The notes below the pieces were generated by a model. It was not told where the DNA came from and did not search any database. It saw only the letters and a program-made list of their open reading frames with translations. A stretch of DNA of 60,302 nucleotides from Halocafeteria seosinensis (lineage: Eukaryota): positions 62,001 through 122,302 of the forward strand of contig LVLI01000066.1 of NCBI GenBank assembly GCA_001687465.1, written 5' to 3'. Made by a program: the position numbers and the translations under genes. Of the stretch, positions 1 through 19,379 are shown one piece after another. Positions within the stretch are counted from its first letter, which is position 1. Each line of letters begins with the position of its first letter.

Positions 1-2445
1 GGTCTCTCGAAGAGACCGAGGGTAATGAGATAGGTGAGGTGATGAAGGATAAGTTCACGTGGGTACTATATCTTCAAATGCATCATTTGATACATGTAGA
101 AAATGAGTACGCGAAAGCTGATGGGGATACATGCTTGGGGATTCTTCTCTCCAAGAGCTTCATGAAGCTTAAGGAAACCTTTAGCGACGAGGTTGCTGCG
201 TGCGATATTACCGCGCAGCAAGCAGCGTAAACAGAGTGATATTCTTTTCCTCCTGGATGGGTGCGACGAAGTAAAAACTAATCCATTTGAACTTGGTTCA
301 CTCGGTGGGAGAATGTTTTCCGTTCTTCGCCAAATGGGAGTGTTCGTTTTTGTATCGTCGCGATTCTCGAGTCATACGGCGAGTCGTCAGGATGGTATCC
401 CCTTAGTTAACAGGTACTTTAGCTCTTTTGTAGTGGTGGAGGGACTCACACCGGAGGCTCGCAAACTTTTTGTGGAACAATATGCTCAAGAACGTTATCC
501 AGACAGCAGAGGTAACCAACTGCATCTTTCCCAGACACTGCAGCTCTCCTTCCGGCTCAACGATCGGCTTGACTATCTCGGTGCTAATCCGACGCTCCTG
601 GAAGCGATATGTTTTGTATATGTAGAGAGCTCAGGAAGCTTCTTTGAATCTACAAAGAAGGACATTCGCATCACGCCAATTTACGCTCGGACTGTGAAAC
701 ATTTGGTGCACAAATGGTCGACGATATCATGCTCGTCTTCACCCGACGATGATCCCCTTGACGTGTCACTAAAAATGTTAGAGGATGTAGCCTTACGACT
801 GGACGAAGATGGAGAAAATCTTCATGAGGAGAACGTTTCCACTGATAAAGACGTGTCTCTACATCGTTTGCAAAAGATCTTTGCAAAGTATCGCGAGGAA
901 TTTCGGGGACCACTAAAGTCTGTAGAGCGGGTGACCGAGTTTTTCGAGCGTGTTGGTCTGTTGAGGATTGTGTGCCGCACGGGTGACGCAGATCAAACCT
1001 ATGAATTCATTCATCGTTCTTACTGGGAATATTTTGTGGCTCTAGGGGAATTTAGAAAGAGTAAGTCTCGCCCCGCCAGATACCTTATTCAATCTGAGTC
1101 TCGACTTTGGGATCGGGTTTTCGACTTCTACGTCAGCATATTTAGCGAACAGCAAAACATTAACACTATTACTGATTTGCTTCATAGCTTACATGGTTTG
1201 CTATGTGGGGAGCATGTATCCGGTTGTACACCAGATCAAGGCCCCCATCGGTTCACCGAACTTTTACTTGAAGTGCATCCAGATAAATTGGAAAAAGTAT
1301 CGCTTCACATGATAATGTCGGCTTCAGACGAAATACGATCGCTTTTGTTTTATGCAGGTGAAATAGGCAGTTTTCGTCTTGTTAGCTGGATCCTAGCTCA
1401 GACTGCTCAGCGTAACTATCAATGTGGCGAGAAGGAAACCTATAGCGAGCAAAGAGCACTTGTCCAAGTTGCACTCGCGGGATCTTCGAAAGGAGGACGA
1501 TCTGCTTGTTGCCGAAGGATACTGGATACCATGGATACTGATTTTTATCGGGTTGAGGAAACTTCGTGGTCAGCTATTTACATAGCATCGCGAGAAGCTA
1601 GTGCCCCGGGAGCTGCCGCATGTTTGCAGTTGCTACTGGCTGAAGCTAAGCTGTCCGAAACCCCGGAGTTTATTAAACAGGAATCTATGAAAATCGCAGG
1701 AGAACGGAGTCACGAACGTTGCGTCGCCCTGTTCTTAATCTGGTGTGACGGTGTTGTAGGTGAAGTCGCTGCACAAGTATTGGGTGACGCCTGGATGTCG
1801 ATGGCCCCACAAAAAAGAATAAATGCCGCAAAGAGTGAACTTAATTGTTTTGAAGAGTTAGTACAAGCGTTGCAACGGGATGATGTGGAACGACTTTACG
1901 CACTCAATGATGGCGGAAAGGATGTAAGCTTACAGTTCTCTCGAAAGGGACATGAGAATTGCTATTCTCCCGTATGGATTGCTGTGATATTAGACAGACC
2001 AAACACAATATTGCCATTGTATACGTGCAATGCGACTATCGACGAAGTGCTTCCATACCAGCGTGTAAAGTTGATGTTTGAGGAAGTTTATCCTCGGTCA
2101 AGTGAAATGGACTGTTGGCTGAACACCGAGCTCTCCATGGATGAAGAGACGAAACTGACGCCTTATGCTTTAGCCTCGAGCTTGGGGCGAATTGATTGTG
2201 TGGAAGCTTTGGAGCAAACAAAGGTGCCTCTCAAGAATGATAAAGCACTGAGTCTTGGTCCTCTTCGAGGAGCCATACGAACTGGCCAGTTGGCCTGTGT
2301 CAAACACTTCGTTGGCGAAGGAAGAATAGACACCGACTTAATTGAGGAGTCAATTTTGTTTGATCGAAATGTAACTTTGGAATTTTTGCTTTCTCGGAGG
2401 CAATTGACCGAAACACCTGACCAGGACGACGAGTTTGTTAGTTAT

Positions 2446-3003
2446 TGTTTTCATTTATGTTTAAAGAAGGACAGTGGAAAATGCCTGCTGGAATTACTGG
2501 ATGGAGCTGAATGGAGACGGTTATTGCGTGATCGGGCGGGATATTCAGACAACGAGTTTGTTAGTTATTGCTTGCATTCATGCTTAAAAAGCGATTGCGG
2601 GAAGTGCCTCGTCGAGTTGCTGAATACGTCTCAATGGATGGATATACTCTGCCAGCAGAAGGGATGCTCTTTTGCGAAACTCATCGGCTCTTGCTTGCAA
2701 TCATGCTTAGAAAATGATTGCGGGAAGTGCCTCGTCGAGTTGCTGAATACATCTGAATGGATGGATATATTCTGCCAGCAGAAGGGGTGCTCTTCCGCGG
2801 AACTCATTGGTTTTTGCTTTCAGTCATGCTTAGAGAAAGATAGCGGAAAGTGCCTCGTGGAGCTACTGAGAACAAGTCGATTGCAAAATATTCTCTGTGG
2901 ACAAGGCGAGTCCACTGAAGATTTTACTGTTCGGTGCTTTAAAATGTGCTTAGAGAAGAATCGTGGAGGTTGTGTTGAGGGTTTGCTAAGTGTGACTCAA
3001 CTG
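2446..3003 (+). repeat. 123-bp (41-aa) Cys-rich coding repeat, about 5 units
   Basis: Units of the form CFQSCLEKDSGKCLVELLNTSxWxDILCxQKGCSxxELIGx are visible in both protein and DNA. Confidence 0.85.
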
Positions 3004-3876
3004 AACGACAGTATCGTCCCTACGGCTCATAGGGCCACTGTCGCTATCAATGACGCGGTGACACTCGATGCGATCTATTGCTTGGAGCCCCTTGTATATT
3101 CCTGTTTGGAGAGATTTTCTTCCGAAATAGTGGGATTGAGGGACGAACACATCATCTTAGCCGCAAAATATGGCTCGGAGCGTGTTCTACGGACATTGAT
3201 TACCAAGCTGAAGGTGCAACCCTCGCAATTGTTCACTGAGCAGGGACATTATTCTTTACTATTTTTGGCGGCTTTGAATGGTCATGATAAATTGATAAAA
3301 TCTCTGATGGGAGACTTTGAAATCAGCACACATCAAGGAGTCTCAGAGCAAGGCGAAAGTGTTTTGTTTGCAGCAGCCTTGAGTGGGAATGTAAATTGTC
3401 TAAACGAATTGCCAAGTTCCGATGTAGCGAATCTCAAAGAGCAAAAAAGTTCGTATGGGCTGTTACCTCTTGATGTGGCTTGTCTGGTGGACTCTTCGGA
3501 ATGTATCAAATTCTTAATGCCCACTAAGCACACGGAGTCGGGCAAGAAGAGGCTGAAAATCCGCCACGAGTGGCTACGCGATCTCCCTGATACTGTCTCG
3601 CTGCCTTGTGTGCTAACTGAGCAGATTGTTCATGATAAACAGCGCAAGAGCAAAGTTCATACGGTCGAGGTAAATGCAAAGACTATTGTCGATAATCTGT
3701 TCAAAGCGCTACCTACATACACGTCTGTCGCACATGGCACGGATCAGCAGCAGCAGCAGCAGCATCATTACGATGATGATCATAAACGCAGTAACAACAA
3801 CGCATATACACCTAGTACGACACCGGAATATGACAACCAAGATGAAGATGGGTTTGAGGTATTGGACATGGAAGAA

Positions 3877-4420
3877 TGCAATCAATCCACGATTACAGAT
3901 GATGCGTTTGGACATATTGGTCAACTATCGCAATTGCGAGTATTGCGGATGTTTGGGTGCAATCAGTCCACGATTACAGATGATGCGTTCCGACACATTC
4001 GTCAGTTATCACGATTGCAAAGACTGAATATGATTGGGTGCGATCAATCCACGATTACAGATGATGCTTTCCGACATATTAGGCAATTATCACAATTGCA
4101 AGAATTGTTGGTCAAAGGGTGCAATCAATGCACGATTACAGATGATGCTTTCCGACATATCGGTCAATTATCGCAATTGCGAGTATTGTGGATGAATGAG
4201 TGCAATCAATCCACGATCACAGATGATGCGTTCCGACATATTGGGCAGTTATCACAATTGCGAGAATTGTTGGTCAAAGAGTGCAATCAAGCCACGATTA
4301 CCGATGAAGCGTTCCGACATATTAGGCAATTATCGCAATTGCGAGTATTGTGGATGAGTGGATGCGATCAGTTTTCGGAGGATGCATTCCGACATGTCCG
4401 TCATTTGTCCCATTTGGAAA
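3877..4420 (+). repeat. 81-bp (27-aa) LRR tandem array, 6 full units plus a terminal unit
   Basis: The tgc-aat/gat-caa-tcc-acg-att-aca-gat-gat-gc unit recurs at 3877, 3958, 4039, 4120, 4201 and 4282, with a terminal unit at 4363. Protein consensus is CNQSTITDDAFRHIGQLSQLxxLxMxx. Confidence 0.95.
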
Positions 4421-5399
4421 TACTTGGGAAGAGAGGGGCAACCACTGGTTCGGAGGGACTTGAGACAGTCCGCGAAGATAGCTAGGCGTGTCTACATGCG
4501 CCATGACACGTGTTCATGTCAAAGACGTACGGACACCGGTTAAGTGCGCCCACGTGTATAGTGAGCTCGTTTCTGGAGAAGAGCTTGAATCGATTTAGGG
4601 AACCCGAACGTAAACCAGAACTATGGGGTATACTAAGCTTAAACAGTTCGAAACGTAGGTATTACGATAATCTTGAGGTGGCGCCGATCTAAATAGGTGC
4701 ATTTATTATTCCTCCCATCACATGAAGCTCAATCATATCTTCACCTGTACTGTTTTAGTAACGTCAGCATGGATATATCTAGAGCGTTCTATTAGCCAGG
4801 CCACTGGTCAGATCTTTAGTGCATTGCCGTCCAACACCTAGCAATCCGCAATGACTTTTCGTTGTTAGACACTAGACGGAGCACCAAGAATTTGCCACGT
4901 CCTGGATTTAGGTACCGATGGTTTCACCACACGCGCCCTTCCATTCCATCATGTTCAAACCCAATTCACAGGTTTGCGCACTAGTGGTGACAAGGCACAG
5001 CTGGGGAAGTGCTGTCACATATGTGTGTGTGCTGGCAATGTGAACTCCGCAGCCGAAGTATGAGAGAAAGGAAAAGAAATGGTAGTTGTTCAACCGCACT
5101 TCCAGTTTGTGTGCAGTTCATAGAGGAGAAGGGACTGGTATGAATGCTGCCGAAGGTCATACTACGGTGCGCATGTTCAAAAAGTGCCAACCTACGCTAA
5201 TAGCACCAACTACCGTACGTTGAAATGATTTGTTCAAAGAAGCAGGCACCGGTCAAGGTTCCAAAAGTTGCTGATGTTGGTCAGAACCCAGCTATACGGA
5301 ATCGGTTAACGGAGTCCGTTTTCTGTTAATCTAGCAGCTGCCAGCTATATCAGAATGACCATTAGTTGTTCCAGCTGGACAGGATACGCAGCTTACAGA

Positions 5400-5715
5400 T
5401 GGATTTGAAACTTTGATAAATCCGCTCCAATAATATGGACTATCACACCAACGTTTGCTGGAACATATTAGCAGCTGAAGAAGTCTCTTCCGAACCTGGA
5501 GATGTTGCTTGTGTTATGAAGATAGCCGGTTGAACAATCTGGTTGCCCTTCGGAGAAGTGTCCAATCGACCGTCCTTGGCGTTTGCGCCAGATATTGTTG
5601 TAGAATGACTAAAGTATCGCATCTATGATTCGAGGATAGGAAAAGTTCACTAGATATCCCCAGCATTGCCAAGACAGCTACCCGAATAGGGTTGTTTCGC
5701 CCATCCTCTTTTACT
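5400..5715 (-). pseudogene. Degenerate relic of the C-terminal part of the phosphatase gene at 15516-18026
   Basis: 5411-5710 (tttgataaatccgctcca...atggactatcacacc...aagtatcgcatct...cccagcattgccaagacagct) is colinear with 15735-16030 (tttgacaagtccactcca...atggactatcacacc...aagtatcgcatct...cccagtattgccatgacagct), with indels. Confidence 0.8.
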
Positions 5716-6620
5716 AGGCTTCCTGCGAGTCACCTTCTATATATACAGTATATGTACTTTATCCCTTGGGAACCCGTTCTCCATATTCTTCGCTCTTTAA
5801 TGACCCGAAGGTTTCGTCCGAAAAATCTCGTGACCCTGTTTTAGCGTTGATTTTGCCTACCATTTATCCTCTGCTAGGGGAAGCTCCAGAGCTCGCGAAG
5901 GTGTCGACAGCCTGACGACAGGCCTCTTCGGCGCAGTTTGTACTACATGTATGCGACTGTTCGAGTTTTGTTCCAGCTTTCTTCCGATTTTGATATAGAG
6001 GGACCTTCCATCTCCCCTTCCACCATTGGTACATTCCCCACCGCTTGCTTGCCAACATATCTGCTCACACAATACAAAAAATATACGTACAGTATGTTGA
6101 TGTTGCGAGCTGGGTTCCGCACTTCCACCAAAGGTTCACACGCAGCAAATGCTTAACAAGTTTGCCAGCATTGTCATTCATTTCTTGTTTCTATCTTCAC
6201 ATACGTATTTATCTGTCCCTCTCTCTTTGTGTCTTCCTAGCAGCCTCAGGCCCCGTGAGAGTTGTGTACAGTATCAGCTGGAGTAAGTAGGTGCCTATTG
6301 CTCTTCCTCTCATACACTATATTGAGCATTACTAGATGCAACCACTTGCGCAACACCCTACAATTGCTCCTCTGCACCAGACAGCTTAGGCGCGGTCGAA
6401 GATTCCCGAGAAAAACGACCCGATTCGTTCCGTTACCCTTAGTGAGATCAGACAGCCTATCACCCACCTCGGGAGGAGGCAGACGGGCTGGAGCTTTCCC
6501 TCTCCTATACTGTACGGTATATCTACACAAGAAGAAGAACAAGAGACAAAGAAGGAAGGAATTATTTATTTATTTGTCTGTTTGTGTCTCTCTTTGTGGG
6601 AGTATCCTTCCTTGTTCGAC

Positions 6621-9600
6621 ATGAGAGGCAGCCGAATCCAAGCCCGCTTCGAGGAGGAGAAAGATCATCAGACCCCACCAGCGTGTTCAGAAGAGCACAC
6701 CACCACTACCACCACCTCCACATTGCGAAGACAGCATGGAATGAGGAGACTGGGGTCAGTATCATCCAAGTGGAGGTGGATGAACATCATAGCACTGGTG
6801 GGAACGCTGTTGTTCTTCTTGGCAGCGGCGACTTTGGAGCTCCAGCCTCCTGCGGATCCAGAACCAGGCTCCCAATTCCTCCGTCATACCAGTGCTCACA
6901 AGGATGATGCGAATGTGGAAGCTTCGGTGCGTCGACGGAATCTGAGTCCGTTGGAAATGTCGTTTCTCCCCGAGTGGCTGGTTTGGGTGATCCGAATACT
7001 TGTCCCCAGTGGTGTATTAGGATTCCTCGGGCGCTGGATGTGGAAGTGGTGTCTAATTCACCAGTATCGCAAAGATGATCCCTTCTGCTATCGCGTCGCC
7101 ACAGAGCTGGGGTTGGATTCAACCACATACGCTCGGGCTGATCCGAATGACATGGATGCTCCGACGGATTATCGACCCCATCTACTGCGTCAATACTTGA
7201 TGGATAACTTACAATTGCTGGTTGTCTGGTCCCCCGGTCAGAACTCTTTCGTTCCGTTAATTTCCTATCTCCATGATAACAGGGATCAAATACGTCATGT
7301 TTGCGCTTGCCGAGGGAGTGGTGTGAACGACTTAGCTTCATCGTTCGCTGGGGCTCTGCAACATGGTGTGGGTAATTCAATTGAACAAAGCCAAGCAGGT
7401 GCTTTAACACCTGTGCTTGCTGTCCAGAAGTTTAGGCTTATACGGGGAGGGTGCTGTCGAAGGTTATTGTGTTTGGGTCGAGTGATAGAGCCTTGGGCGC
7501 TTGAACCAAGTCATTGCCCCGATTTGAAGCATGATGTATTCCTGAGGTGGTGCGGTGGCATTGCAAGCTCAGGAGAGTATGCTAGTCTTGTAAAGATCGC
7601 AAGGCCTCCGGTGTCTTTGTCCATAAAATGCGATGATATTATGGACCCTGACTACATTCCTGTCAACGTCGTCTGGGACAATACCCAAAGTGAATCTGCA
7701 TGGACCAGTATTATAGGGGAACAGAAAATTATGATTTCGCTAGAGCCAGCTCAAACGGGTACACCATGCCCTGTTGAATTCGTTGCAAAGACTGCAGGAG
7801 GAATTCCGGATCGTCGCCGTAGTCTAGAATCTCCGACTCAGCTTAGTTTGGAAAGACTGAAGCAAGGAAACTACGGCCTGCGTCTCACCCCGAACGCACT
7901 AATTGAGAGACCTAGTAACGAACATGGCAATACTCCGTTTTATGTGCATGCGTTTGTAGAATCAACAGACAACTACCGGTTGGGACAACTTAACAACGTA
8001 CGTGAATATCACGAACTTCAGTGCTCCTCCTGGGAACATCCGTTAGTTAAGCAAGCTGAATATCGTGAACGCCTTCGGCGTTGGTGCAATAATCCTAGCA
8101 ATAACAGCATTGTACAACCCATCCAATCCCCACAAGGATGGCTGAATTTCCCGGCGGTGACCAGCGTAGAGAACAATTACTTCAATGATGAGCCTGGATG
8201 GAAGTGGGAGGCGGGTGAGGAACCATTCTGGACAAATTTAGCTCCTACGTCGGATATGTTCATTTCCCTGTGCGAACACAGTCCTATCGAGCTCTGTCGA
8301 GGGGATAGCAACAGAATCTCTGTCGATCACCTCATTTCATGTCCTCAGAAAATTAGTGTGCATCCGACGGAAGCATCCCTTTACTCTAACAATGAAAATC
8401 CCCGACGCGTGCCCTTTGAATTTCACTTGCAATGCAGTCATAAGATGCATGCAGGGATCGAACAAACGCGTTTATTTGTATTTAGTTATATCGCAAACAC
8501 GAATAGGTCGGAAGTGCGATTTGACTGGAGCAAACTGCCTCCATTGTTCAAGTGTGATTTTCTCCGCTTGCTATATCGAAGCTGGAGGCTTCACCGTCTC
8601 TTTAGTCACGACAGGGAAAAATATTTAGGCACGAAGGAGCGACCGATGTTGAACGATTGCTATCAAAAGCTGACGCTACTAGACAAGCACTCGAAGAATC
8701 CTAACGAAGAGACCCAGACGAGGGAAATCAATGCGACGGAGCTGCTTTCCTTGCCTAGCAGCAACGGCAAATGGGTTCTTTTTGAAGGGCCCGCCGGTGT
8801 TGGCAAAACTACCTTGTTTAAACATTTTGCCCAATCATGGTCTTTATCTGGAAATGAAGCAGAAGAAAATGAAATTGGGCGTCTATTAAGAGATAAATTT
8901 TCATGGATAATTTGTATTCAGCTTTATCACTTGATGGATATTGAGTGCCACGATAGCGCTGCGGATGGAGAGACGTACCTGGGGAGTCTTCTTTCTAAGA
9001 GTTTCTTGGCTCTAAAAGAAAGTCTCAAAGGCAATGATTCCTCTCAGCAAATTAGCAAAGAGGAAGGCAAACGGATTGTAGAACACATACTAAAGAATGG
9101 TAAGGATGTTCTCTTTCTGTTAGATGGGTGCGATGAAGTAAAGAACAATCCGTTCTCGGCGAAGTCTCACGGCAATAAAGCCTTTACGGCACTGCGGCAA
9201 ACTGCAGCCACAGTGCTTGTCTCATCGAGGTTCTCAAGTCATACGGCGAGCCGGGATCAATACGGAATTCTTCTCGCTGCTAAGTATATTAACTACTTCG
9301 TTGAAGTCGAGGGGCTTCAGCCAGAAGCTCGACGAGGTTTTATACAGCACTATGCTGCTGAATGCTATTCGGATAAGAGGAACCGTTTGAAACTTTATCG
9401 GAATTTACAGCTGTCATTCCGACTTAATGATCGTCTTAAAGAACTGAGCTCAAATCCGACCCTTTTGGAAGGGATTTGCTTCGTATATGTGGAAAGCGAA
9501 GGTAGATTCTTTGAGTCCACAACGAAAGACTTCCGTGTGACGCCGATTTATGACCGGACAGTGCACCATCTGCTGGACAAGTGGTGGAGATCGTACACTT

Positions 9601-12600
9601 CGAGTGCCGACGAAGACCCTTGTAAAATAGCAAAGAAGATTCTCGAAGATGTAGCTTCTCAGGTGGATAGAGATGATGGCTACACTGATAAACAGATTCC
9701 TCTTAAATTATTGCAAGAAGCTTTTGATAGCCACCGAAGGAAATTCCGAGGACCGTTGAAGCGTCTGAGGGGACCGAGTGAGTTTTTCGAAGGTGTAGGC
9801 TTGTTGCAAATAGTATGTCCCAGTGGTGATGAAAACCAGACTTACGAATTCATCCACCGATCCTACTGGGAGTACTTTTTGGCGCGTCAGCAATTTAAGA
9901 CTGTGGATCCAAGAAATGTTGAAAGTCTTGTCGAGGGGGGATCGCGTCTCGGGGATCGGTTTATGGATTTCGTTGTTAGCCTCTTTAGTGAACACCAGAA
10001 TTTAGAGGCTGTTACCACTTTGCTTTGTAGTTTGCACAGATCCCTGACAGGTCAGGAAGACGAAGCGTCTCGCGGACGCAGTCGTTTCGTAGAGCTTCTT
10101 CTGGAAGTCGATCCCGGGGCCTTGGAGCAGATATCGCTGAGTGAAATCACGTGTACTGCTGAAGAAATGAAGCTTTTGCTATTTTGTGCGGGGCAAGTAG
10201 GCAGTCTTCGCCTCATCCGGTGGATTTTAGATAATTGCAGCGATAGCTCAGTGAACCGGTTAGAGCTGAACCAAATCGCACTCGCTGGCGCGGTAAAAGG
10301 AGCACGCTTTGATTGTTGTCGAGCTGTTTTGGATACATTAGAAACTAAATTTTACCTGATAACCGATGTCGCATGGTCGCCGATTTATATTGCATCGAGA
10401 GATGGATGTGCTCTCTGTCTGCAGTTACTGCTCAGCTGGCTCCTGGCTCGTCCCAACCTTCCAGCTATTGCTGACTCTGTCAGGCACGAATCTTTGAAGA
10501 TAGCAGGACAACAAAACCATGATCGCTGTACTTCCTTACTCTTGATCTGGTGCGAAGGCAACATTGATGATTGTAATGCGCCAGTCCTGAGTGACTTCTG
10601 GTTCTCGCTGAATAGAGAGGAAAGGATCAGTAACGCGAAGCACTATCTTGACTGTTTTGACGACCTAGTCGAAGCGTTGCAGGACGAGAATGTGGACCGA
10701 CTATATGCACTCAACGACGACGGAAAGGATGTAAGTTTGCAGTTCTCTCGGAGGGGACAAGAAAATTGCTACTCCCCAGCATGGGTTGCTGTTGCATTAG
10801 ACAAGCCAAACACAATATTACCATTGTATACGTGCAATGCGACTATCGATGAAGTTCTGCCTTCTCGACGTATCAAGTTGATGTTCCAAGAAATTTGCTC
10901 GACGTCAACGTCAAGCGAAATGGAATGTTTGCTGGACAAGGAGCTCTCCGTGGATGAAGAGACGGAACTTACTCCTTATGTTTTAGCCTCAAGTCTGGGA
11001 CGACTTGATTGTGTGGAAGCCCTGGAGCAAACGAAAGTGTCTCTGAAGAACGATGCAGCACTAGGTCTTGGTCCTCTGCGAGCAGCCGCCCGAACGGGCC
11101 AGTTGGCATGCCTGAAGCACTTTCTCGAAGCAGGACGCATATATATAGATACAGAGGTAATCAAGGATTCCATTTTGTTTGATCGAGATGAAACTTTCGA
11201 GTTTTTGCTTTCTCAAGGGAGTCAATGGGCAATTACCATCGATTTTATCGGGTATTGCTTCCAATTGTGCCTAGAGCAACGTAGCATAGGATGTCTTGAG
11301 TTATTGCTGGCTAACGAATGGAAAGATCAGCTTTGTCAACATGGTCAGTCCAATGAAGGGGAGGTCATGAGCCAGTGTTTGCATATATGTCTCGACGAAG
11401 ATAGTGGACGTTGTCTTGGGGCATTGCTTAGCACAAAGCAGTGGAGAGATGCGGTCTGTCGGCATGAGGGATTTCATATGGAGGAACTCGTTTATCAGTG
11501 CTTTCAGCTATCAATGGAGAAAGACAACACAAAGTGTCTTGAGGAGCTACTTGACGTCGATGAGTGGAGACAGTTGCTTTATCAACATGCGGGATACAAT
11601 GAAGGAGAGTTCTTGGATCATTGCTTCCAGTTGTGTATCGAACACGACAAGAATAAGTGTCTCGTGCACTTGATAGGTTCTGAGCGGTGGAGAGGTTCTC
11701 TTTGCCAGTTCAATGGATGCAGTGAAAATGGTCTCATTAACTCTTGCTTTCAGTCGTGCTTAAACAAAGATAGTCGAAAGTGCCTAGTGGAGCTTCTGAG
11801 TACAACTCAATGGAAAGATATGCTCTGCGAACAGGAGAGGTTAACTTTTGAAGAGCTCATCGGTTCTTGCTTTCAATCATGCTTGGGAAACGATCGCGGG
11901 AAGTGCCTCGTCGAGTTACTGAATACATCTCAATGGAAGGATTTACTCTGTGAACAGATGGGATGCTCGTTTACTGAACTCATCGGTTCTTGCTTAGAGA
12001 AAGATAGTGGGAAGTGCCTCGTTGAGTTGCTGAATACATCTCAATGGAAGGATTTACTCTGTGAACAGATGGGATGCTCGTTTACTGAACTCATCGGTTT
12101 TTGTTTTCAGTCATGCTTAGAGAAAGATAGCGTAAGGTGCCTCGTTGAGTTGCTGAATGCATCTCAATGGAAAACTTTACTCTGTGAGCAGAAGGGATGC
12201 TCGTTTACTGAACTCATCGGTTCTTGCTTTCGGTCATGTTTAGAAAAAGATAGTGTAAAGTGCCTCGTTGAGTTGCTGAATGTATCTCAATGGAAGAATT
12301 TACTCTGTGAGCAGAAGGGATGCTCGTTTACTGAACTCATCGATTCTTGCTTTCGGTCATGCTTAGAGAAAGATAGTGAAAAGTCCCTCGTTGAGTTGCT
12401 GAATGCATCTCAATGGAACGATATACTCTGTGAGCAGGAGGAATGCTCGTTTACTGAACTCATCGATTCTTGCTTTTGGTCATGCTTAGAGTCAGATAGT
12501 GGAAAGTGCCTCGTAGAACTAGTGAGTACTAGCCTGTGGACCGATATGCTCTGTGAACAAGGCGAGTCCGTTGAAGATTTTACTGTCCGGTGCTTTCGAT

Positions 12601-14066
12601 TGTGTATAGAAAGAGATCGTGGACGCTGTGTTGAATGTTTGCTAAGCGCCACGCAACTGAGTAACAGTATCATCCCTACGGCTGACATGGGAGAGGTCGC
12701 TATCAAAGACGTAGTGAAATTAGATGCGATCCATTGCTTGGAGCCTCTTGTATCTTCCTGTGTGGAAAAATTTTCTTCCGAAATTGTTGGGTTGAGGGAA
12801 GAGCACATCTTCTTGGCCGCAAAATATGGTTCGGAGCCCGTTCTACGGACATCAATCTCCAGACTGAAGATACAACCCTCACGATTATTCACGGAGCAAG
12901 GACATTATTCTTTACTATTCTTGGCGGCTTTGAATGGTCATGACGAGTTAATGAAATCTCTTATGGAAGACTTTGACATTAACGCACATCAAGGAGTCTC
13001 AAAGCATCGCGAAAGTGTTTTGTTTGCGGCAGCCCTGAGTGGAAATGTGAATTGTCTAAAACAATTGCCAAATTCCGATGTAGCATATCTTAGGAAGAAA
13101 AAGACGTCGTATAAACTGTTACCTCTTCATGCGGCTTGTCTAATGGACTCTTCGGAATGTATTAAATTCTTAATGCCCACTGAACCTTGGTTGGACGACA
13201 ACAGCCAGAAGACGAGGCTGAGGATCCACCCAGAGTGGCTACGCGATCTCCCTGATACTGTCTCGTTGCCTCGCGAGTTAACTGAGCACATTGTTCATGA
13301 TGGGCGGCGCAACAGAAATGTCCATATGGTCGAGGTGAATGCAAAGACTATTGTTGATAATCTATTCAAAGCGCTACCTACATACACGTCTGTCTCAAGA
13401 CTCTCAACTGACACCCGTAGTACGTATGATGATCATCATCATTATCAACAGCAGCATAATTACGATGACGATCATAATTTCAGTAACAACAGTGCATATA
13501 CACCGAGTACGACCCCAGAACATGACAACCAAGAAGAGGATGGGTTTGAGTTATTGGGTATGAGTTTGTGCAACCAATCCACAATTACAGATGATGCGTT
13601 CCGACATATTGGGCAATTATCACACTTGCAACACTTGTTTATGAATGAGTGCGATCAATCCACGATTACAGATGATGCGTTCCGATATATTGGGCAATTA
13701 TCACAGTTGCGAAGATTGGATATGATTGGATGCAATCAATCCACGATTACAGATGATGCGTTCCGACATATCGGTCAGTTACCACACTTGCAAACATTGT
13801 GGATGAATAGGTGCAACCAATCTACGATTACAGATAATGCGTTTCGACATATTGGGCAATTATCACAATTGCAAAGACTGTGGATGATTGGGTGCGATCA
13901 ATCCACGATTACAGATGATGCGTTCCGACATATTGGTCAATTATCACAACTGCAAACATTGTGGATGATCGGGTGCAATCAATTTTCAAAGGATGCGTTC
14001 CGACATGTCCATCATTTGTCCCATTTGAAAATACATGGGAAGATAGCCGCAACAAAAGATAGCTAG
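6621..14066 (+). CDS. Membrane-anchored NLR-like STAND protein: TM segments, unknown N-terminal domain, NACHT, ankyrin-like repeats, 41-aa Cys repeats, ankyrin-like repeats, His/Gln linker, LRR
   Basis: Intronless ORF of about 2480 aa from ATG 6621. Hydrophobic segments WMNIIALVGTLLFFLAAA and WLVWVIRILVPSGVLGFLG; Walker A GPAGVGKTT; Walker B VLFLLDGCDE; winged-helix YEFIHRSYWEYF; ankyrin-like LLFLAALNGH and LPLHAAC; C-terminal 27-aa LRRs. Confidence 0.9.
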   Translation: MRGSRIQARFEEEKDHQTPPACSEEHTTTTTTSTLRRQHGMRRLGSVSSKWRWMNIIALVGTLLFFLAAATLELQPPADPEPGSQFLRHTSAHKDDANVEASVRRRNLSPLEMSFLPEWLVWVIRILVPSGVLGFLGRWMWKWCLIHQYRKDDPFCYRVATELGLDSTTYARADPNDMDAPTDYRPHLLRQYLMDNLQLLVVWSPGQNSFVPLISYLHDNRDQIRHVCACRGSGVNDLASSFAGALQHGVGNSIEQSQAGALTPVLAVQKFRLIRGGCCRRLLCLGRVIEPWALEPSHCPDLKHDVFLRWCGGIASSGEYASLVKIARPPVSLSIKCDDIMDPDYIPVNVVWDNTQSESAWTSIIGEQKIMISLEPAQTGTPCPVEFVAKTAGGIPDRRRSLESPTQLSLERLKQGNYGLRLTPNALIERPSNEHGNTPFYVHAFVESTDNYRLGQLNNVREYHELQCSSWEHPLVKQAEYRERLRRWCNNPSNNSIVQPIQSPQGWLNFPAVTSVENNYFNDEPGWKWEAGEEPFWTNLAPTSDMFISLCEHSPIELCRGDSNRISVDHLISCPQKISVHPTEASLYSNNENPRRVPFEFHLQCSHKMHAGIEQTRLFVFSYIANTNRSEVRFDWSKLPPLFKCDFLRLLYRSWRLHRLFSHDREKYLGTKERPMLNDCYQKLTLLDKHSKNPNEETQTREINATELLSLPSSNGKWVLFEGPAGVGKTTLFKHFAQSWSLSGNEAEENEIGRLLRDKFSWIICIQLYHLMDIECHDSAADGETYLGSLLSKSFLALKESLKGNDSSQQISKEEGKRIVEHILKNGKDVLFLLDGCDEVKNNPFSAKSHGNKAFTALRQTAATVLVSSRFSSHTASRDQYGILLAAKYINYFVEVEGLQPEARRGFIQHYAAECYSDKRNRLKLYRNLQLSFRLNDRLKELSSNPTLLEGICFVYVESEGRFFESTTKDFRVTPIYDRTVHHLLDKWWRSYTSSADEDPCKIAKKILEDVASQVDRDDGYTDKQIPLKLLQEAFDSHRRKFRGPLKRLRGPSEFFEGVGLLQIVCPSGDENQTYEFIHRSYWEYFLARQQFKTVDPRNVESLVEGGSRLGDRFMDFVVSLFSEHQNLEAVTTLLCSLHRSLTGQEDEASRGRSRFVELLLEVDPGALEQISLSEITCTAEEMKLLLFCAGQVGSLRLIRWILDNCSDSSVNRLELNQIALAGAVKGARFDCCRAVLDTLETKFYLITDVAWSPIYIASRDGCALCLQLLLSWLLARPNLPAIADSVRHESLKIAGQQNHDRCTSLLLIWCEGNIDDCNAPVLSDFWFSLNREERISNAKHYLDCFDDLVEALQDENVDRLYALNDDGKDVSLQFSRRGQENCYSPAWVAVALDKPNTILPLYTCNATIDEVLPSRRIKLMFQEICSTSTSSEMECLLDKELSVDEETELTPYVLASSLGRLDCVEALEQTKVSLKNDAALGLGPLRAAARTGQLACLKHFLEAGRIYIDTEVIKDSILFDRDETFEFLLSQGSQWAITIDFIGYCFQLCLEQRSIGCLELLLANEWKDQLCQHGQSNEGEVMSQCLHICLDEDSGRCLGALLSTKQWRDAVCRHEGFHMEELVYQCFQLSMEKDNTKCLEELLDVDEWRQLLYQHAGYNEGEFLDHCFQLCIEHDKNKCLVHLIGSERWRGSLCQFNGCSENGLINSCFQSCLNKDSRKCLVELLSTTQWKDMLCEQERLTFEELIGSCFQSCLGNDRGKCLVELLNTSQWKDLLCEQMGCSFTELIGSCLEKDSGKCLVELLNTSQWKDLLCEQMGCSFTELIGFCFQSCLEKDSVRCLVELLNASQWKTLLCEQKGCSFTELIGSCFRSCLEKDSVKCLVELLNVSQWKNLLCEQKGCSFTELIDSCFRSCLEKDSEKSLVELLNASQWNDILCEQEECSFTELIDSCFWSCLESDSGKCLVELVSTSLWTDMLCEQGESVEDFTVRCFRLCIERDRGRCVECLLSATQLSNSIIPTADMGEVAIKDVVKLDAIHCLEPLVSSCVEKFSSEIVGLREEHIFLAAKYGSEPVLRTSISRLKIQPSRLFTEQGHYSLLFLAALNGHDELMKSLMEDFDINAHQGVSKHRESVLFAAALSGNVNCLKQLPNSDVAYLRKKKTSYKLLPLHAACLMDSSECIKFLMPTEPWLDDNSQKTRLRIHPEWLRDLPDTVSLPRELTEHIVHDGRRNRNVHMVEVNAKTIVDNLFKALPTYTSVSRLSTDTRSTYDDHHHYQQQHNYDDDHNFSNNSAYTPSTTPEHDNQEEDGFELLGMSLCNQSTITDDAFRHIGQLSHLQHLFMNECDQSTITDDAFRYIGQLSQLRRLDMIGCNQSTITDDAFRHIGQLPHLQTLWMNRCNQSTITDNAFRHIGQLSQLQRLWMIGCDQSTITDDAFRHIGQLSQLQTLWMIGCNQFSKDAFRHVHHLSHLKIHGKIAATKDS
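11256..12658 (+). repeat. 123-bp (41-aa) Cys-rich coding repeat, about 12 units
   Basis: Period measured between units at 12102 and 12225 is 123 bp. Central units are near-identical, and one unit lacks 12 bp (CFQS). Confidence 0.9.
13569..14030 (+). repeat. 81-bp LRR tandem array, 5 full units plus a terminal unit
   Basis: Units start at 13569, 13650, 13731, 13812 and 13893, with a terminal unit at 13974. Confidence 0.95.
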
Positions 14067-14143
14067 GCATGTCTACATTCGCCGTGGGATTCATTACGAA
14101 GGCGTATGAGTACAGGTTTAGTGCACGCTGATGTATAGTGAGC

Positions 14144-14378
14144 AGGATCGCAGACGTCGCTCGTTCGCACCGTGCCAGCTTGTGCTTGTACTGGCCGGCG
14201 AGCTGGAGCTCGATGGAGTAGCACTTGCAGGTGATGTAAAGCTGCATGAAGGAGTCTCTGACCATGTCGTTGTCACTGGTGGTGTGGCCCTCGGTGATGG
14301 AGTAGCGGATGGAGACGTCGTTTCCGGATTTGCCCTGTTGTGTTGGGACATTGAAATGGCCCTTACCGTATATCGGGG
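14144..14378 (-). other. About 235-bp insertion encoding a Ser/Thr/Pro-rich (mucin-like) fragment in the 3' flank of NLR copy 2
   Basis: The flanks (tgtatagtgagc ... aacgtaaac.agaactat) match the copy 1 flank at 4555-4625, which lacks this segment. The minus strand reads ETTSPSATPSPRATPPVTTTWSETPSCSFTSPASATPSSSSSPASTSTS. Confidence 0.65.
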
Positions 14379-15515
14379 ATAAATCATTCAGGGAAACTCG
14401 AACGTAAACGAGAACTATAGAGTACATTAAGTTTAAACAGTTCGGAGGTATTGCGGTTAATCTTAAGGTGTCGCCCATCTAAAATGTTACATTTCTCAAT
14501 CTTATCTTCACGTGTACTGTTCGTAGTAAAATCAGCAACTTTGCAGGCTGAACCGAATGCCATTGATTACTGCCGAATATTCACCGTCTTACGCAGTGGC
14601 TTACCTCACCTCGACACTTCTAAACCTGGTTGCTCATGTGTAAACTCAGAATGTTCTTCAGTTAACAACTCCAGGATCTTCGCTTTTCGGTTTTAACCGG
14701 AACCTTGCTGCCCTCAGTCTGGTTTCTCCATTAGCCTTGGCTCTTCCTCGGATTCATGTGCTTCTTCATCCTGAGTATGCTGGGGTTGCGAAGCTGATTG
14801 CTGGAGTGTTGTTTTGTCTCTTCCTTTCTGCAGGTTATGCTCAAAGTTATCAGTATTCGCCTTGCTTCTGGGGCTTCAAACTTCTCCTCCGCAACACGTC
14901 GCCCGGCTTGTGGGCGAAAAGTATTCGTCAGTTGCCTATGCGACAGCTCTTCCACTTTGGAAGTGACGGTCGCTTCTTCGCGGGATCATGTATGAACCTG
15001 ACCCACCTTTCGACCACATGCTCTTAGCTGATCCACTGGTACATTTCGAAGTGCTTGAGCGCGCTGTTCTCAACTTTTTCACAAGCAGTACCTTCGTTAG
15101 GAACGCCAGTGGTGACGTTTTCCTCAACGATTTCCTTCCTGGAACGTGGTTGGCTGACCTGCCGCTACATTTGGAAGAACTTGGATGCGCTCGTTTCAAC
15201 TTCTTGGCAACGGTGGAAGACGGACTTGCCTCGTTTGTTCTTCTAGTTTTCAGCCACTCTCTGGGAATGTTGGATGTCCGGACCGAATACTTCTTCATCT
15301 TTTGGCTCTCAAGATTTGGAGCTTTGGTAAACTGTTTGTAGATGTCTGCTCAATTGCCTAAGGCAAACTGCGAACGAGTTCTGAGTTCTGATATTGCTGT
15401 AACAAGATACTTCCTCGAGCAGCTAGAGTCTCGAACCAGCTTGTCCGGTTGAACCGGTTACGTAGTATAAATACTTGCTTGCCCCACAATGCTTGCTCTC
15501 ACTACCGTCTTTCCC

Positions 15516-18026: not shown

Positions 18027-18219
18027 CACTTTCTACCTATCTAAGTATCGTGCTCAACATTATCATGGGATCATTCTATCCAGTAGAATGACAATACGGG
18101 GAGTATTATACACTACAATGTGACTACATAACGTGTATCACGCTCTTGGAACATAACTTCAACTTCTTGTCGTATTTAGAGCCTTGGCAGCCTTGTACGA
18201 GAGGCTGTACACAATTACA

Positions 18220-19045: not shown

Positions 19046-19379
19046 AATTGTCAAGCAGATTTTTTTTTTTTCTTTTCCACTCGTTCAAGTGATCTTATGA
19101 ATCGCGCTTTCCACAAAAATCGTCCCAACCAAACAATCGCTCTAATTTGCTTGGTATAGCTTGGATAACGCGATATTGAGTCGCCGACTCGCCTTCACAC
19201 TTGCAACTTCAAGGCGCGATCCAAAGGACACCCAATGTCATTACAGCGATACCGTATCGGCTTGATTGACGCAGATACGCAGCTACGTTTACGTTTCCCA
19301 AGGAAGCGCAGCGGGTGTCCGAAAATCCTCCTGTTTATTAGTGTGTATCAGTGGACGCAAAGCTTAAGCATTGAGTACG

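What the first reader, a model, noticed from the sequence alone, without database searches (positions are those of the whole stretch)
6621..14066. Membrane-tethered NLR-like receptor with three stacked repeat sensors (ankyrin, 41-aa Cys repeat, LRR)
Seen: two N-terminal hydrophobic helices, about 550 aa of unassigned sequence, a NACHT with intact Walker A and B, ankyrin-like repeats interrupted by a 41-aa Cys-rich array, and a C-terminal LRR array, all in one intronless ORF in an intron-rich genome. Known: NACHT-LRR receptors are characteristic of animals, while fungal and algal STAND receptors mostly use WD40, ANK or TPR repeats. Inference: this is an independently assembled protist immune or non-self receptor with an architecture I do not recognise.
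Basis: partly seen in the sequence, partly recalled or inferred. Interest (0 to 1): 0.85.

Follow-up and report, generated by a model that had tools for sequence, protein, structure and literature searches.

The report
Membrane-anchored NACHT-ankyrin-LRR receptor-like protist gene
One transcribed, intron-free 2,481-codon gene of a small-genome eukaryote joins two hydrophobic N-terminal segments (a predicted membrane anchor), a 550-residue domain with no known relatives, a NACHT ATPase, ankyrin repeats, twelve 41-residue Cys-rich helical repeats and six LRRs. It likely works as an NLR-type switch at a membrane, though an immune role is untested.

Summary
Window 6621-14066 (+) is one 2,481-aa ORF. 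It has two N-terminal hydrophobic segments and about 560 aa with no Pfam, PDB-sequence or Atlas match. Pfam NACHT matches at E 6.9e-10, above the curated cut-off, with Walker A and B intact. There are ankyrin blocks, twelve 41-aa Cys-rich units predicted as a three-helix solenoid, and six 27-aa LRRs that pass Pfam cut-offs and resemble F-box (FBXL2) LRRs.

RNA-like public runs carry colinear, unspliced contigs over the gene, while neighbouring genes show GT..AG introns. A frame-shifted tandem paralogue lies upstream.

The family is tiny in public data: five related clusters among 1.84 billion representatives. Two transcript fragments from another organism together show the same domain order without the 41-aa array.

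This is an NLR-like STAND protein with an unreported domain order. However, NACHT+LRR proteins are already reported in choanoflagellates and bacteria, and membrane-bound NLRs in anthozoans. Immune function, topology and independent assembly are inferred, not shown. Repeat units are on average under purifying selection.

Verdict: a new variant of a known kind, of moderate interest.

The parts
6621..14066 (+). Whole single-exon coding sequence, 2,481 aa plus stop (P0001)
   Evidence: Colinear contigs in RNA-like runs X2-X4 cover pieces between 6890 and 13763.
6783..6845 (+). Hydrophobic segment 1 (about aa 55-75): a signal anchor, or the core of a signal peptide if translation starts at Met41
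   Evidence: KD 2.29. It aligns with the signal-peptide-like start of P0003.
6963..7034 (+). Hydrophobic segment 2 (about aa 115-138), the predicted membrane anchor, followed by a conserved basic YRK patch
   Evidence: KD 1.78 here and 1.98 at the same place in P0003.
7035..8720 (+). N-terminal domain of unknown fold (about aa 139-700), shared only with P0003, P0005, P0006 and the start of P0004
   Evidence: No Pfam, PDB-sequence or Atlas match. Relatives come and their alignment. The AF2 model is poor (pLDDT 49) and the best structural Z is 4.6.
8775..9356 (+). NACHT NTPase domain (aa 719-912) with Walker A (aa 723-731) and Walker B (aa 830-839)
   Evidence: Pfam PF05729, E 6.9e-10, 39.4 bits against cut-off 26.7. 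Short motif-level alignments to NLRC4.
9357..9920 (+). Helical and winged-helix continuation of the NOD module (about aa 913-1100), including NPTLLE and FIHRSYWEYFLA (His1079)
   Evidence: Conserved in P0002, P0004 and the upstream paralogue. The His-containing stretch aligns to NLRC4. Naming these motifs as NACHT hallmarks is from recall.
10182..11135 (+). Ankyrin-like region 1 (aa 1188-1505)
   Evidence: Ank_2 28.2 bits (aa 1188-1272) and 24.3 bits, below cut-off (aa 1435-1505).
11226..12683 (+). Array of twelve 41-aa Cys-rich units (aa 1536-2021), consensus g.s..Eli..CFqsCLE.Ds.kCLveLL...qW...LCeq
   Evidence: TRF; units in register. AF2 model with mean pLDDT 62 (aa 1491-2110) shows three helices per unit. 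Only weak solenoid matches. No Pfam, Atlas or homologue match.
12915..13175 (+). Ankyrin repeats, block 2 (aa 2099-2185)
   Evidence: Ank_2 49.2 bits, Ank_3 34.0 bits.
13569..14054 (+). Six 27-aa LRRs (aa 2317-2478), unit CNQSTITDDAFRHIGQLSQLQxLxMxG
   Evidence: TRF; units; Pfam LRR_4, LRR_14 and LRR_8 above cut-off. PDB hits: LIC11098 E 7.4e-14, and FBXL2 E 6.7e-10 over 163 residues on both sides.
12..4485 (+). Tandem upstream paralogue, cut by the window start and frame-shifted near 157-224. It has fewer 41-aa units.
   Evidence: 52% identity over 956 aa and 64% over 686 aa. tblastn places 12-224 in frame 3 and 157-3015 in frame 1. A DNA-like contig matches 1-2622 with 0 differences and continues upstream.

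Best explanation
The gene encodes a NACHT-class STAND ATPase that is predicted to be anchored in a membrane by its N-terminus, and that likely acts as an NLR-type molecular switch.

Shown:
- One uninterrupted, transcribed ORF.
- A NACHT domain with intact Walker A and B.
- Ankyrin blocks, a 12-unit 41-aa helical repeat array and six F-box-type LRRs C-terminal to it.
- Two hydrophobic segments plus a 560-aa lineage-restricted domain N-terminal to it.
- A tandem paralogue, and a relative in another organism with the same order of parts.

Inferred by analogy with studied STAND/NLR proteins:
- Both predicted topologies put the bulk of the protein in the cytosol. These are a two-helix hairpin, or a cleaved signal peptide plus one TM helix.
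- The C-terminal solenoids (ANK, 41-aa array, LRR) would hold the NACHT in an ADP-bound off state and bind a ligand.
- Ligand binding would allow nucleotide exchange and NACHT oligomerisation.
- Oligomerisation would cluster the N-terminal unknown domains and their membrane anchors. That output would be either membrane perturbation or recruitment of partners.
- The trigger is most likely non-self or conflict-related (virus, bacterium, conspecific), but this is the least supported step.
For: Architecture.

NACHT motifs line up with NLRC4 at Walker A, Walker B and the winged-helix His.

Transcription without splicing: runs X2-X4 show GT..AG or CT..AC joints in neighbouring genes and very uneven depth, so they are RNA-like. 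They hold colinear contigs over 6890-7368, 7465-8312, 8988-10454, 10629-11111, 11082-11513, 11634-11948, 12467-12911 and 13325-13763.

The domain order is not an assembly artefact. P0003 (798 aa) covers aa 106-830: TM2, the N-domain and the NACHT up to just before Walker B. P0002 (1,401 aa) covers aa 864-1569 and 2063-2470. They carry adjacent transcript ids.

Features typical of NLR-like families:
- Tandem duplication with one decayed copy.
- Repeat arrays that change in copy number between relatives: 12 units here, fewer in the paralogue, about one in P0002, which instead has many more LRRs.
- High internal repeat identity, 83-84% at DNA level.
- Very narrow distribution and fast divergence: only 15 proteins at E<=1e-3 among 1,835,955,588 representatives.
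- Many more differences between the window and read contigs inside the gene than in the flank. Examples are 16 in 845 nt and 19 in 848 nt, against 5 in 4,632 and 0 in 4,123.
- Of 36 listed coding differences, 19 non-synonymous and 9 synonymous fall in aa 44-645, against 0 and 8 in aa 714-1131.

Precedent for membrane-bound NLRs comes from PMC3879445. Precedent for TM-bearing bacterial NACHT proteins comes from the Kibby preprint.
Against: - No functional data, and no infection or challenge data.
- Units of both repeat arrays are on average under purifying selection (mean dN/dS 0.29 for the LRRs, 0.25 for the 41-aa units). This is not the hypervariability seen in many immune sensors.
- The family looks small: two copies in this window and five clusters in public data. 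No genome-wide count was possible because no genome is held.
- The TM call rests on hydropathy and conservation in one relative. A similar hydropathy value (1.97) occurs inside the ankyrin region of P0002, so such peaks can be false.
- The N-terminal domain has no recognisable effector fold.
- PADLOC and NCBIfam gave no NACHT-type defence model hit at E<=0.1.
- PDB NLR matches are weak: NLRC4 E 0.11, and NLRP3 E 0.005 with a family profile.
Confidence: 0.55

Rival explanations
1. It is a membrane-anchored STAND scaffold or regulator with a housekeeping role, for example in trafficking, cilium or signalling assembly, and not a non-self sensor. The repeats would bind fixed endogenous partners.
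For: Mean dN/dS among repeat units is 0.25-0.29. The NACHT part shows 0 non-synonymous and 8 synonymous differences. RNA-like runs that are not known to be challenge experiments hold low-depth contigs of the gene. The family is small in public data. The F-box-type LRRs and ankyrin repeats are generic protein-binding modules.
Against: The distribution is extremely narrow and divergence is fast: 43-47% identity to the closest relative, and nothing else above E 1e-19 apart from four fragments. There is a tandem copy with a frameshift, repeat copy number varies between relatives, and the N-terminal half carries many non-synonymous differences. Conserved housekeeping scaffolds are usually widespread.
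Confidence: 0.25
2. The NACHT core, or the whole gene, is a fairly recent acquisition from bacteria. That would explain the lack of introns, and the gene would keep a bacterial-style abortive-infection logic.
For: The 7.4-kb ORF has no intron although neighbours have several. Among the 10 non-family hits are TIR/SEFIR-NACHT-HEAT proteins from metagenome sources (P0013, P0014). The Kibby preprint argues for repeated bacteria-to-eukaryote NACHT transfers and describes bacterial NACHT proteins with TM and LRR parts.
Against: GC of the gene (0.43-0.49 in 2-kb bins) lies within the window's range of 0.43-0.52. PADLOC and NCBIfam give no NACHT hit at E<=0.1. The other non-family hits include NACHT+LRR_6 and DED-NACHT-LRR proteins of animal type, at equally weak E-values. 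The closest relatives are transcripts from a eukaryote protein set. Other long intron-free ORFs occur in the window.
Confidence: 0.1
3. The long ORF is not one functional protein. It would be a mis-joined model or a decaying pseudogene, and the N-terminal hydrophobic part would not belong to the NACHT protein.
For: The upstream paralogue is frame-shifted. The 5' end of the mRNA was not mapped. The relative P0003 starts at a position matching Met41, not Met1.
Against: There are 2,481 codons without a stop. RNA-like contigs are colinear with the ORF. P0003 joins the TM segment, N-domain and NACHT in one transcript ORF. The NACHT part shows synonymous-only differences, indicating constraint.
Confidence: 0.05

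Closest known systems
Animal NLRs (NACHT-LRR; e.g. NLRC4, NLRP3, NOD1/2)
   Same: NACHT with Walker A, Walker B and a winged-helix His stretch that aligns to NLRC4. LRRs lie at the C-terminus. NACHT and LRR sit in one protein, which is the working definition of a bona fide NLR in PMC3879445.
   Different: There is no CARD, PYD, Death or DED domain. The LRRs are 27-aa Cys-initiated units like F-box LRRs, and Pfam LRR_6 is not matched. About 1,100 aa of ankyrin and 41-aa repeats are inserted between the NOD and the LRR. The N-terminus has hydrophobic segments. Sequence similarity to solved NLRs is marginal.
Anthozoan putative membrane-bound NLRs (Yuen et al. 2014, PMC3879445)
   Same: N-terminal transmembrane segments precede a NACHT-LRR protein (passages read).
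   Different: Those have three to four TM segments with a gap-junction-like Cys-rich profile. This protein has two hydrophobic segments followed by a 560-aa domain of unknown fold. No sequence comparison was possible because no such sequences were on hand.
Fungal NLR-like proteins (NACHT or NB-ARC with ANK, TPR or WD40 repeats)
   Same: NACHT plus ankyrin repeats; highly similar internal repeats (83-84% DNA identity); lineage-specific N-terminal domains; tandem and decayed copies. The description of the fungal family is from recall and from search listings.
   Different: The recalled literature says fungal NLRs lack LRRs, and PMC2939053 (passages) found no LRR+NACHT combination in 49 fungal genomes. 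This protein has LRRs, has no HET, HeLo or other known fungal N-terminal domain, and has a predicted membrane anchor.
Choanoflagellate NACHT+LRR proteins (Richter et al. 2018, PMC6040629)
   Same: These are non-animal eukaryote proteins with both NACHT and LRR and without Death or CARD (passages read).
   Different: Their full architectures were not given in the passages I read, and I did not open the supplements. No TM segment, ankyrin repeat or 41-aa array is mentioned there.
Bacterial NACHT antiphage proteins (Kibby et al., preprint 10.1101/2022.07.19.500537)
   Same: The NACHT acts as a hub between a variable N-terminal effector and C-terminal repeats. Some have TM parts and LRR or HEAT repeats (passages read).
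   Different: [quoted passage not shown] No PADLOC NACHT-type hit was found at E<=0.1. The gene sits among intron-bearing eukaryotic genes.
F-box/LRR proteins (FBXL2, Skp2, FBXL5): LRR subtype only
   Same: FBXL2 matches at E 6.7e-10 over 163 residues on both sides, so the best-stretch spans are equal in length. Skp2, FBXL5 and KDM2A are also hit. Each unit starts with Cys and carries an ITD motif. The name 'CC-type LRR' is recalled.
   Different: There is no F-box, and the LRRs are attached to a STAND ATPase.

Membership tests
NACHT NTPase (Pfam PF05729, STAND class) | Profile match above the curated gathering score over most of the model | tested here: met
   39.4 bits against 26.7, E 6.9e-10, model positions 3-164 of 167, aa 719-912.
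NACHT NTPase (Pfam PF05729, STAND class) | Walker A GxxxxGK[ST], and Walker B hhhhD followed by acidic residues | tested here: met
   GPAGVGKTT at aa 723-731 and VLFLLDGCDE at aa 830-839, read. Both are aligned to NLRC4 and conserved in P0004 and P0003.
NACHT NTPase (Pfam PF05729, STAND class) | Winged-helix His motif after the NTPase core (motif recalled) | tested here: met
   YEFIHRSYWEYFLA (His1079) aligns to the corresponding NLRC4 stretch. It is conserved in P0002, P0004 and the paralogue.
NLR in the sense of NACHT + LRR in one protein (definition used in PMC3879445) | [quoted passage not shown] | tested here: met
   NACHT. The LRR tail passes Pfam cut-offs (LRR_4 44.2, LRR_14 41.4, LRR_8 31.1) and matches solved LRR proteins.
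Metazoan NLR clade | N-terminal death-fold domain (CARD, PYD, Death, DED) | tested here: not met
   Aa 1-700 gave 0 Pfam families at E<=0.1. No such family appears in the whole-protein scan at E<=1.
Metazoan NLR clade | NACHT groups with animal NLR NACHTs in a phylogeny | not testable with these tools
   No labelled reference NACHT sequences were available. The nearest non-family hits are a mix of animal-type and bacterial-type architectures, all at E 6e-7 to 1e-3.
Metazoan NLR clade | Ribonuclease-inhibitor-type LRRs (Pfam LRR_6; feature recalled) | tested here: not met
   LRR_6 is not among the 13 families hit by the LRR tail at E<=0.1. The units are 27 aa and resemble FBXL2.
Fungal NLR-like proteins | NACHT or NB-ARC plus ANK, TPR or WD40 repeats with high internal repeat conservation | tested here: met
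   NACHT plus Ank_2. The repeat arrays show 83-84% DNA matches. The highly conserved arrays are the 41-aa units and the LRRs, not the ankyrin repeats.
Fungal NLR-like proteins | Known fungal N-terminal effector domain (HET, HeLo, PNP_UDP, patatin and others; list recalled) | tested here: not met
   No Pfam family in aa 1-700 at E<=0.1.
Bacterial NACHT / Avs-type defence proteins | Match to a defence-system NACHT or STAND model | tested here: inconclusive
   PADLOC gave only two weak hits in repeat regions (PDC-M72A, DrmD) and NCBIfam gave none in the NACHT at E<=0.1. Absence of a hit does not exclude distant kinship.
Membrane-bound NLR (anthozoan type) | N-terminal transmembrane helices | tested here: inconclusive
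   Two hydropathy peaks, conserved in P0003. The shuffle control is weak (26 of 300 and 209 of 300), and no TM or signal-peptide predictor was available.
Armadillo/HEAT-type alpha-solenoid (for the 41-aa array) | About 40-residue units of two to three helices stacked into a solenoid; profile match | tested here: inconclusive
   AF2 predicts three helices per unit (model of aa 1491-2110, mean pLDDT 62, 70-83 in its best part). Foldseek gives only weak matches to designed armadillo proteins, beta-catenin and CAND1 (best E 6e-4, TM 0.25 or less). No Arm or HEAT Pfam hit was found.
F-box-type (Cys-containing) LRR subtype | 26-27-aa units starting with Cys, similar to FBXL proteins (subtype definition recalled) | tested here: met
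   Six 27-aa units begin with C[ND]Q. FBXL2 matches at E 6.7e-10 over 163 residues on both sides, and Skp2, FBXL5 and KDM2A are also hit.

The most novel reading that the evidence does not exclude
This is a self-contained, membrane-resident 'resistosome' that evolved in a protist independently of animal and plant NLRs. Ligand capture by a composite ANK / 41-aa Cys-repeat / LRR solenoid drives NACHT oligomerisation. That bundles the pre-inserted TM anchors and a new 560-aa effector domain into a pore or channel, which kills or alarms the cell. The 560-aa domain and the 41-aa repeat would then be a new effector fold and a new sensor repeat class.
Probability: 0.15. Interest if true: 0.8.

Novelty: new variant of a known kind. 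Interest (0 to 1): 0.55.

Why it matters
NLR-type receptors are central to immunity in animals, plants, fungi and bacteria, but are hardly described in free-living protists. This gene shows that a small-genome eukaryote has put a NACHT switch together with LRRs. It uses a different LRR subtype, an extra repeat class and a membrane anchor in place of a death-fold adaptor. If functional work confirmed a sensing role, it would be a further case of convergent NLR assembly. It would also give a tractable example of an NLR that signals from a membrane through an unknown 560-aa output domain. If it proves to be a housekeeping scaffold, it is a caution against reading 'NACHT + repeats' as immunity.

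Tried and rejected
- Whole-genome family count: no genome is held for this window.
- Earlier notes of this scan: nothing for this genome or sequence. The word search gave two unrelated protist findings, which I did not use.
- Transcript accession prefix in papers: 0 papers.
- N-terminal domain: 0 Pfam families, 0 PDB sequence hits at E<=10, no usable Atlas hit.
- N-terminal domain structure: the AF2 model with a 5-row alignment was poor (mean pLDDT 49, pTM 0.35). VIA-align against 48,161 chains gave 0 chains at Z>=5. The best match was Z 4.6, rmsd 3.5 over 100 residues, to beta-sandwich domains over model residues 202-354. That is within noise, so no fold is assigned.
- Word-index homologue searches among shorter proteins found nothing for aa 130-720 or aa 1536-2021. 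The first missed P0003, which the exhaustive search found, so these blanks are weak.
- 41-aa array: Atlas best score 0.76, a lead only. Foldseek gave only generic solenoids.
- Family-profile search of the PDB: the profile (A5) took in the long LRR tail of P0002, so LRR proteins topped the list. NLRP3 appeared only at E 0.005.
- Rfam and tRNA scans of the window: 0 matches each.
- Sequencing runs: no listed holder is on record as RNA. I call X2-X4 RNA-like from their spliced joints and uneven depth. X2-X4 have no cover over 1-6003, and I draw no conclusion from that.
- A single low-depth joint, 7695->8002 (X4, depth 2.5, side 28), was not taken as an intron.
- Positive selection on repeats was rejected as a general claim. 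Mean dN/dS is 0.25-0.29, and only 2 of 20 unit pairs reach 1 or more, on very few changes.
- Organism identity was not determined. 'Protist' rests on spliceosomal introns, eukaryotic neighbour genes, a DNA-like run whose contigs total only 37.8 million letters, and relatives in a eukaryote protein set.
Full report
**1. Is it there?**

Window 6621-14066 (+) is one open frame of 2,481 codons. The stop-to-stop frame runs from 6390, and 6621 is its first ATG.

- Pfam places a NACHT domain at aa 719-912 (E 6.9e-10, 39.4 bits against a cut-off of 26.7, model positions 3-164 of 167).
- The sequence shows Walker A GPAGVGKTT (aa 723-731) and Walker B VLFLLD followed by GCDE (aa 830-839).
- Further on are a VSSR stretch, NPTLLE and FIHRSYWEYFLA (His1079). 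The Walker motifs and the His stretch line up with NLRC4 in an otherwise weak PDB match (E 0.11).
- Ankyrin matches lie at aa 1188-1272 (28.2 bits), aa 1435-1505 (24.3 bits, below the cut-off) and aa 2099-2185 (49.2 bits).
- Tandem Repeats Finder reports a 123-bp repeat (6.4 copies, 84% matches, 11742-12514) and an 81-bp repeat (5.1 copies, 83% matches, 13568-13983).
- In protein register these are twelve 41-aa units (aa 1536-2021, one shortened by four residues) and six 27-aa units (aa 2317-2478).
- The LRR call was just under Pfam's cut-off in the whole-protein scan (LRR_4 26.0 against 27). The tail alone passes it (LRR_4 44.2, LRR_14 41.4 against 40, LRR_8 31.1).
- The tail also matches solved LRR proteins, such as LIC11098 at E 7.4e-14 and FBXL2 at E 6.7e-10.

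**2. The membrane anchor**

The two strongest 19-residue hydropathy peaks lie at aa 56-74 (2.29) and aa 119-137 (1.78); the only other peaks above 1.2 are at aa 1185 (1.48) and aa 1257 (1.33).

Hydropathy alone is weak evidence. A peak of 2.29 or more appeared in 26 of 300 shuffles, and 1.78 or more in 209 of 300. A peak of 1.97 also sits inside the ankyrin region of relative P0002.

The support comes from position and conservation. Relative P0003 starts with a signal-peptide-like hydrophobic stretch (aa 7-25) and has a second segment at aa 119-137 (1.98). As here, that segment is followed by a basic YRK patch.

P0003's start aligns near Met41 of this protein. A start at Met41 would give a classical signal-peptide layout. 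Two topologies therefore remain: a hairpin, or a cleaved signal peptide plus a single TM helix. Both would put the NACHT and the repeats in the cytosol, which is an inference.

The stretch between the two segments is about 40 aa here and about 90 aa in P0003, and it is poorly conserved. It does not look like a ligand-binding ectodomain.

**3. The unassigned 560 aa (aa ~140-700)**

- No Pfam family at E<=0.1.
- No PDB sequence match at E<=10.
- No usable Atlas hit.
- An exhaustive HMMER search of aa 1-1200 against 1,835,955,588 representatives found relatives of this part only in P0003 (aa 106-830, 44% identity), P0005 (aa 135-391) and P0006 (aa 478-643). P0004 overlaps its last 60 residues.
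- An AF2 model from this five-row alignment was poor (mean pLDDT 49).
- The wide structural search gave nothing at Z>=5. The best match was Z 4.6 to beta-sandwich domains.

The fold and activity of this domain are unknown.

**4. The 41-aa Cys-rich array**

The consensus is g.s..Eli..CFqsCLE.Ds.kCLveLL...qW...LCeq. There is no Pfam family, no homologue in the word-index search, and an Atlas best score of 0.76.

AF2 predicts three helices per unit in a continuous helical solenoid (mean pLDDT 62, 70-83 in its best stretch). Foldseek finds only weak solenoid matches to designed armadillo proteins, beta-catenin and CAND1 (best E 6e-4, TM 0.25 or less).

I read it as a predicted armadillo-like repeat of a new sequence type. 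It is not a proven member of that family.

**5. The LRRs**

The units read CNQSTITDDAFRHIGQLSQLQxLxMxG. They are 27 aa long, start with Cys and carry an ITD motif. FBXL2 aligns over 163 residues on both sides, and Skp2, FBXL5 and KDM2A are also hit.

This is the F-box-type Cys-containing LRR (name recalled), not the ribonuclease-inhibitor type of animal NLRs. Pfam LRR_6 is not among the hits.

Within the five full units, the variable positions cluster at positions 18-27, around the LxLxM strand.

**6. Is it a real, expressed, single gene?**

Four public runs hold the stretch. Their kind is not on record.

X1 behaves like DNA: it has cover in all 30 bins and no splice-like (GT..AG) joints. X2-X4 behave like RNA: their depth ranges from 0 to several thousand, and they show GT..AG or CT..AC joints at 18435-19011 (skips of 59-73 nt) and at 19522-19968 (skips of 223 and 154 nt).

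X2-X4 carry contigs colinear with the ORF at 6890-7368, 7465-8312, 8988-10454, 10629-11111, 11082-11513, 11634-11948, 12467-12911 and 13325-13763, at low depth. No well-supported joint lies inside the ORF. The gene is therefore transcribed and apparently intron-free, beside genes with introns.

The domain order is backed by another organism's transcripts. P0003 joins TM2, the N-domain and the NACHT up to just before Walker B. P0002 runs from the NACHT sensor region through ankyrin repeats to LRRs (43% identity over 712 aa and 45% over 413 aa). The two carry adjacent accession numbers.

P0002 aligns only as far as the first 41-aa unit (aa 1569) and resumes at aa 2063. It thus lacks the array but has many more LRRs.

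**7. Surroundings and family**

Upstream, 12-4485 (+) is a tandem paralogue, 52% identical over 956 aa and 64% over 686 aa.
- It has fewer 41-aa units.
- The window start cuts it.
- Its frame shifts near 157-224.
- A DNA-like contig matches 1-2622 exactly and continues upstream with short matches to 7448-8603. The shift is therefore in the DNA reads too, and the copy once had the N-domain.

In public protein data the family is tiny:
- 15 proteins at E<=1e-3, 5 at E<=1e-10 and 4 at E<=1e-30.
- The four family clusters I looked up (P0003-P0006) each have one member.
- The near-length word search found 1 protein among 6,834 candidates.

I scanned 14 hits (P0003-P0016) with Pfam, and 11 carry a NACHT. 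The exceptions are the N-domain fragments P0003, P0005 and P0006. The ten non-family hits (E 6e-7 to 1e-3) mix NACHT+LRR_6, DED-NACHT-LRR, TIR/SEFIR-NACHT-HEAT and bare NACHT proteins. The NACHT's closest clade is therefore unresolved.

PADLOC and NCBIfam gave no NACHT-type hit. A family profile reached NLRP3 only at E 0.005.

**8. Variation**

| Contig and region | Differences from the window |
|---|---|
| X1, 7830-8674 (gene) | 16 in 845 nt |
| X3, 7465-8312 (gene) | 19 in 848 nt |
| X2, 8988-10454 (gene) | 15 in 1,467 nt |
| X3, 12467-12911 (gene) | 22 in 445 nt |
| 13920-18562 (flank) | 5 in 4,632 nt |
| flank | 2 in 4,125 nt |
| flank | 4 in 4,149 nt |
| flank | 0 in 4,123 nt |

These contigs are either divergent alleles or near-identical paralogues, and I cannot tell which.

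Of the 40 differences shown (95 more were not shown), 36 lie in the ORF. In aa 44-645 there are 19 non-synonymous and 9 synonymous changes. In aa 714-1131 there are 0 non-synonymous and 8 synonymous changes. The NACHT is thus constrained while the N-terminal half changes freely.

Among repeat units, mean dN/dS is 0.29 for the LRRs and 0.25 for five 41-aa units. Only 2 of 20 pairs reach 1 or more. There is no general sign of diversifying selection in the repeats.

**9. How it most likely works**

The shown parts fit the STAND/NLR plan, with a variable N-terminal output, a NACHT switch and C-terminal solenoid repeats.

By analogy (inference), the repeats keep the NACHT off and bind a ligand. Nucleotide exchange then lets NACHT domains oligomerise, which clusters the N-terminal domains at the membrane where they are anchored.

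Several features favour a conflict-related sensor over a housekeeping scaffold:
- tandem duplication with decay;
- changes in repeat number between relatives;
- narrow distribution and fast divergence;
- the excess of differences at this locus.

The purifying selection on repeats, the small known family and the lack of any challenge data keep that at about even odds.

**10. Comparison with what is known**

- Yuen et al. 2014 (PMC3879445, passages) found NACHT outside animals only with ANK, TPR or WD40 repeats, and called NLRs metazoan-specific. They also described anthozoan NLRs with three to four N-terminal TM segments as the first putative membrane-bound NLRs.
- Richter et al. 2018 (PMC6040629, passages) detected proteins with both NACHT and LRR in several choanoflagellates, without Death or CARD.
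- Kibby et al. (preprint, passages) describe 25 NACHT clades, bacterial forms with TM, LRR and HEAT parts, and repeated transfers to eukaryotes.
- Soanes and Talbot 2010 (PMC2939053, passages) found no LRR+NACHT combination in fungi.

My text searches listed no paper with the order TM, unknown domain, NACHT, ANK, 41-aa repeat, ANK, LRR. These are word searches, and I did not open any supplements, such as Kibby Table S1 or the Richter domain tables. A similar architecture could be tabulated there.

**11. Verdict**

This is a new variant of a known kind: an NLR-like STAND protein with a predicted membrane anchor, a new N-terminal domain, a new 41-aa helical repeat and F-box-type LRRs.

It is not a new category of system, and its immune role is unproven.

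Noticed in passing
window 12-4485 (+): A tandem paralogue of the NLR-like gene. Its frame shifts near 157-224 (frame 3 to frame 1), the window start cuts it, and it has fewer 41-aa units. It may be a pseudogene.
   Followed up: partly
window 6198-12911 versus 13920-18562: Read contigs differ from the window roughly 4 to 40 times more often inside the NLR-like gene than in the flanking gene. These contigs are either divergent alleles or near-identical paralogues. Listed changes are mostly non-synonymous in aa 44-645 and only synonymous in aa 714-1131.
   Followed up: partly
window 6741 (Met41) versus 6621 (Met1): The relative P0003 starts at a position matching Met41. A start there would turn the first hydrophobic segment into a classical signal peptide. 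The true start codon is open.
   Followed up: no
window 13920-18068: RNA-like contigs of about 4.1 kb span the last 146 nt of the NLR-like ORF and the whole convergent minus-strand gene 15516-18032 (calcineurin-like phosphoesterase, Pfam Metallophos E 2.9e-17). The two convergent transcripts probably overlap at their 3' ends.
   Followed up: no
window 18435-19968: A cluster of short introns appears as joints in RNA-like runs. Four are CT..AC type of 59-73 nt, one with two alternative ends (18858 and 18862). Two are GT..AG type of 223 and 154 nt. The genes there are very highly expressed, with depth up to several thousand.
   Followed up: no
window 32141-38851 (-): A 2,236-aa open frame with a MYCBP-associated protein domain (E 1e-34) and a weak, sub-threshold phosphoglycerate-kinase-like stretch. 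This is a cilium-associated family, which suggests a flagellated organism.
   Followed up: no
window 30289-31617 (+) and 21579-23186 (+): A Cys-rich ephrin-receptor-like / ELAPOR1 TNFR-like ORF, and a protein O-mannosyltransferase (PMT, PMT_4TMC) exon. These are ordinary eukaryotic neighbours.
   Followed up: no
window 26537-28639 (+), 41053-42501 (+), 44342-45613 (-), 54321-55763 (+): Four open frames of 423-700 aa with no Pfam family at E<=0.001.
   Followed up: no
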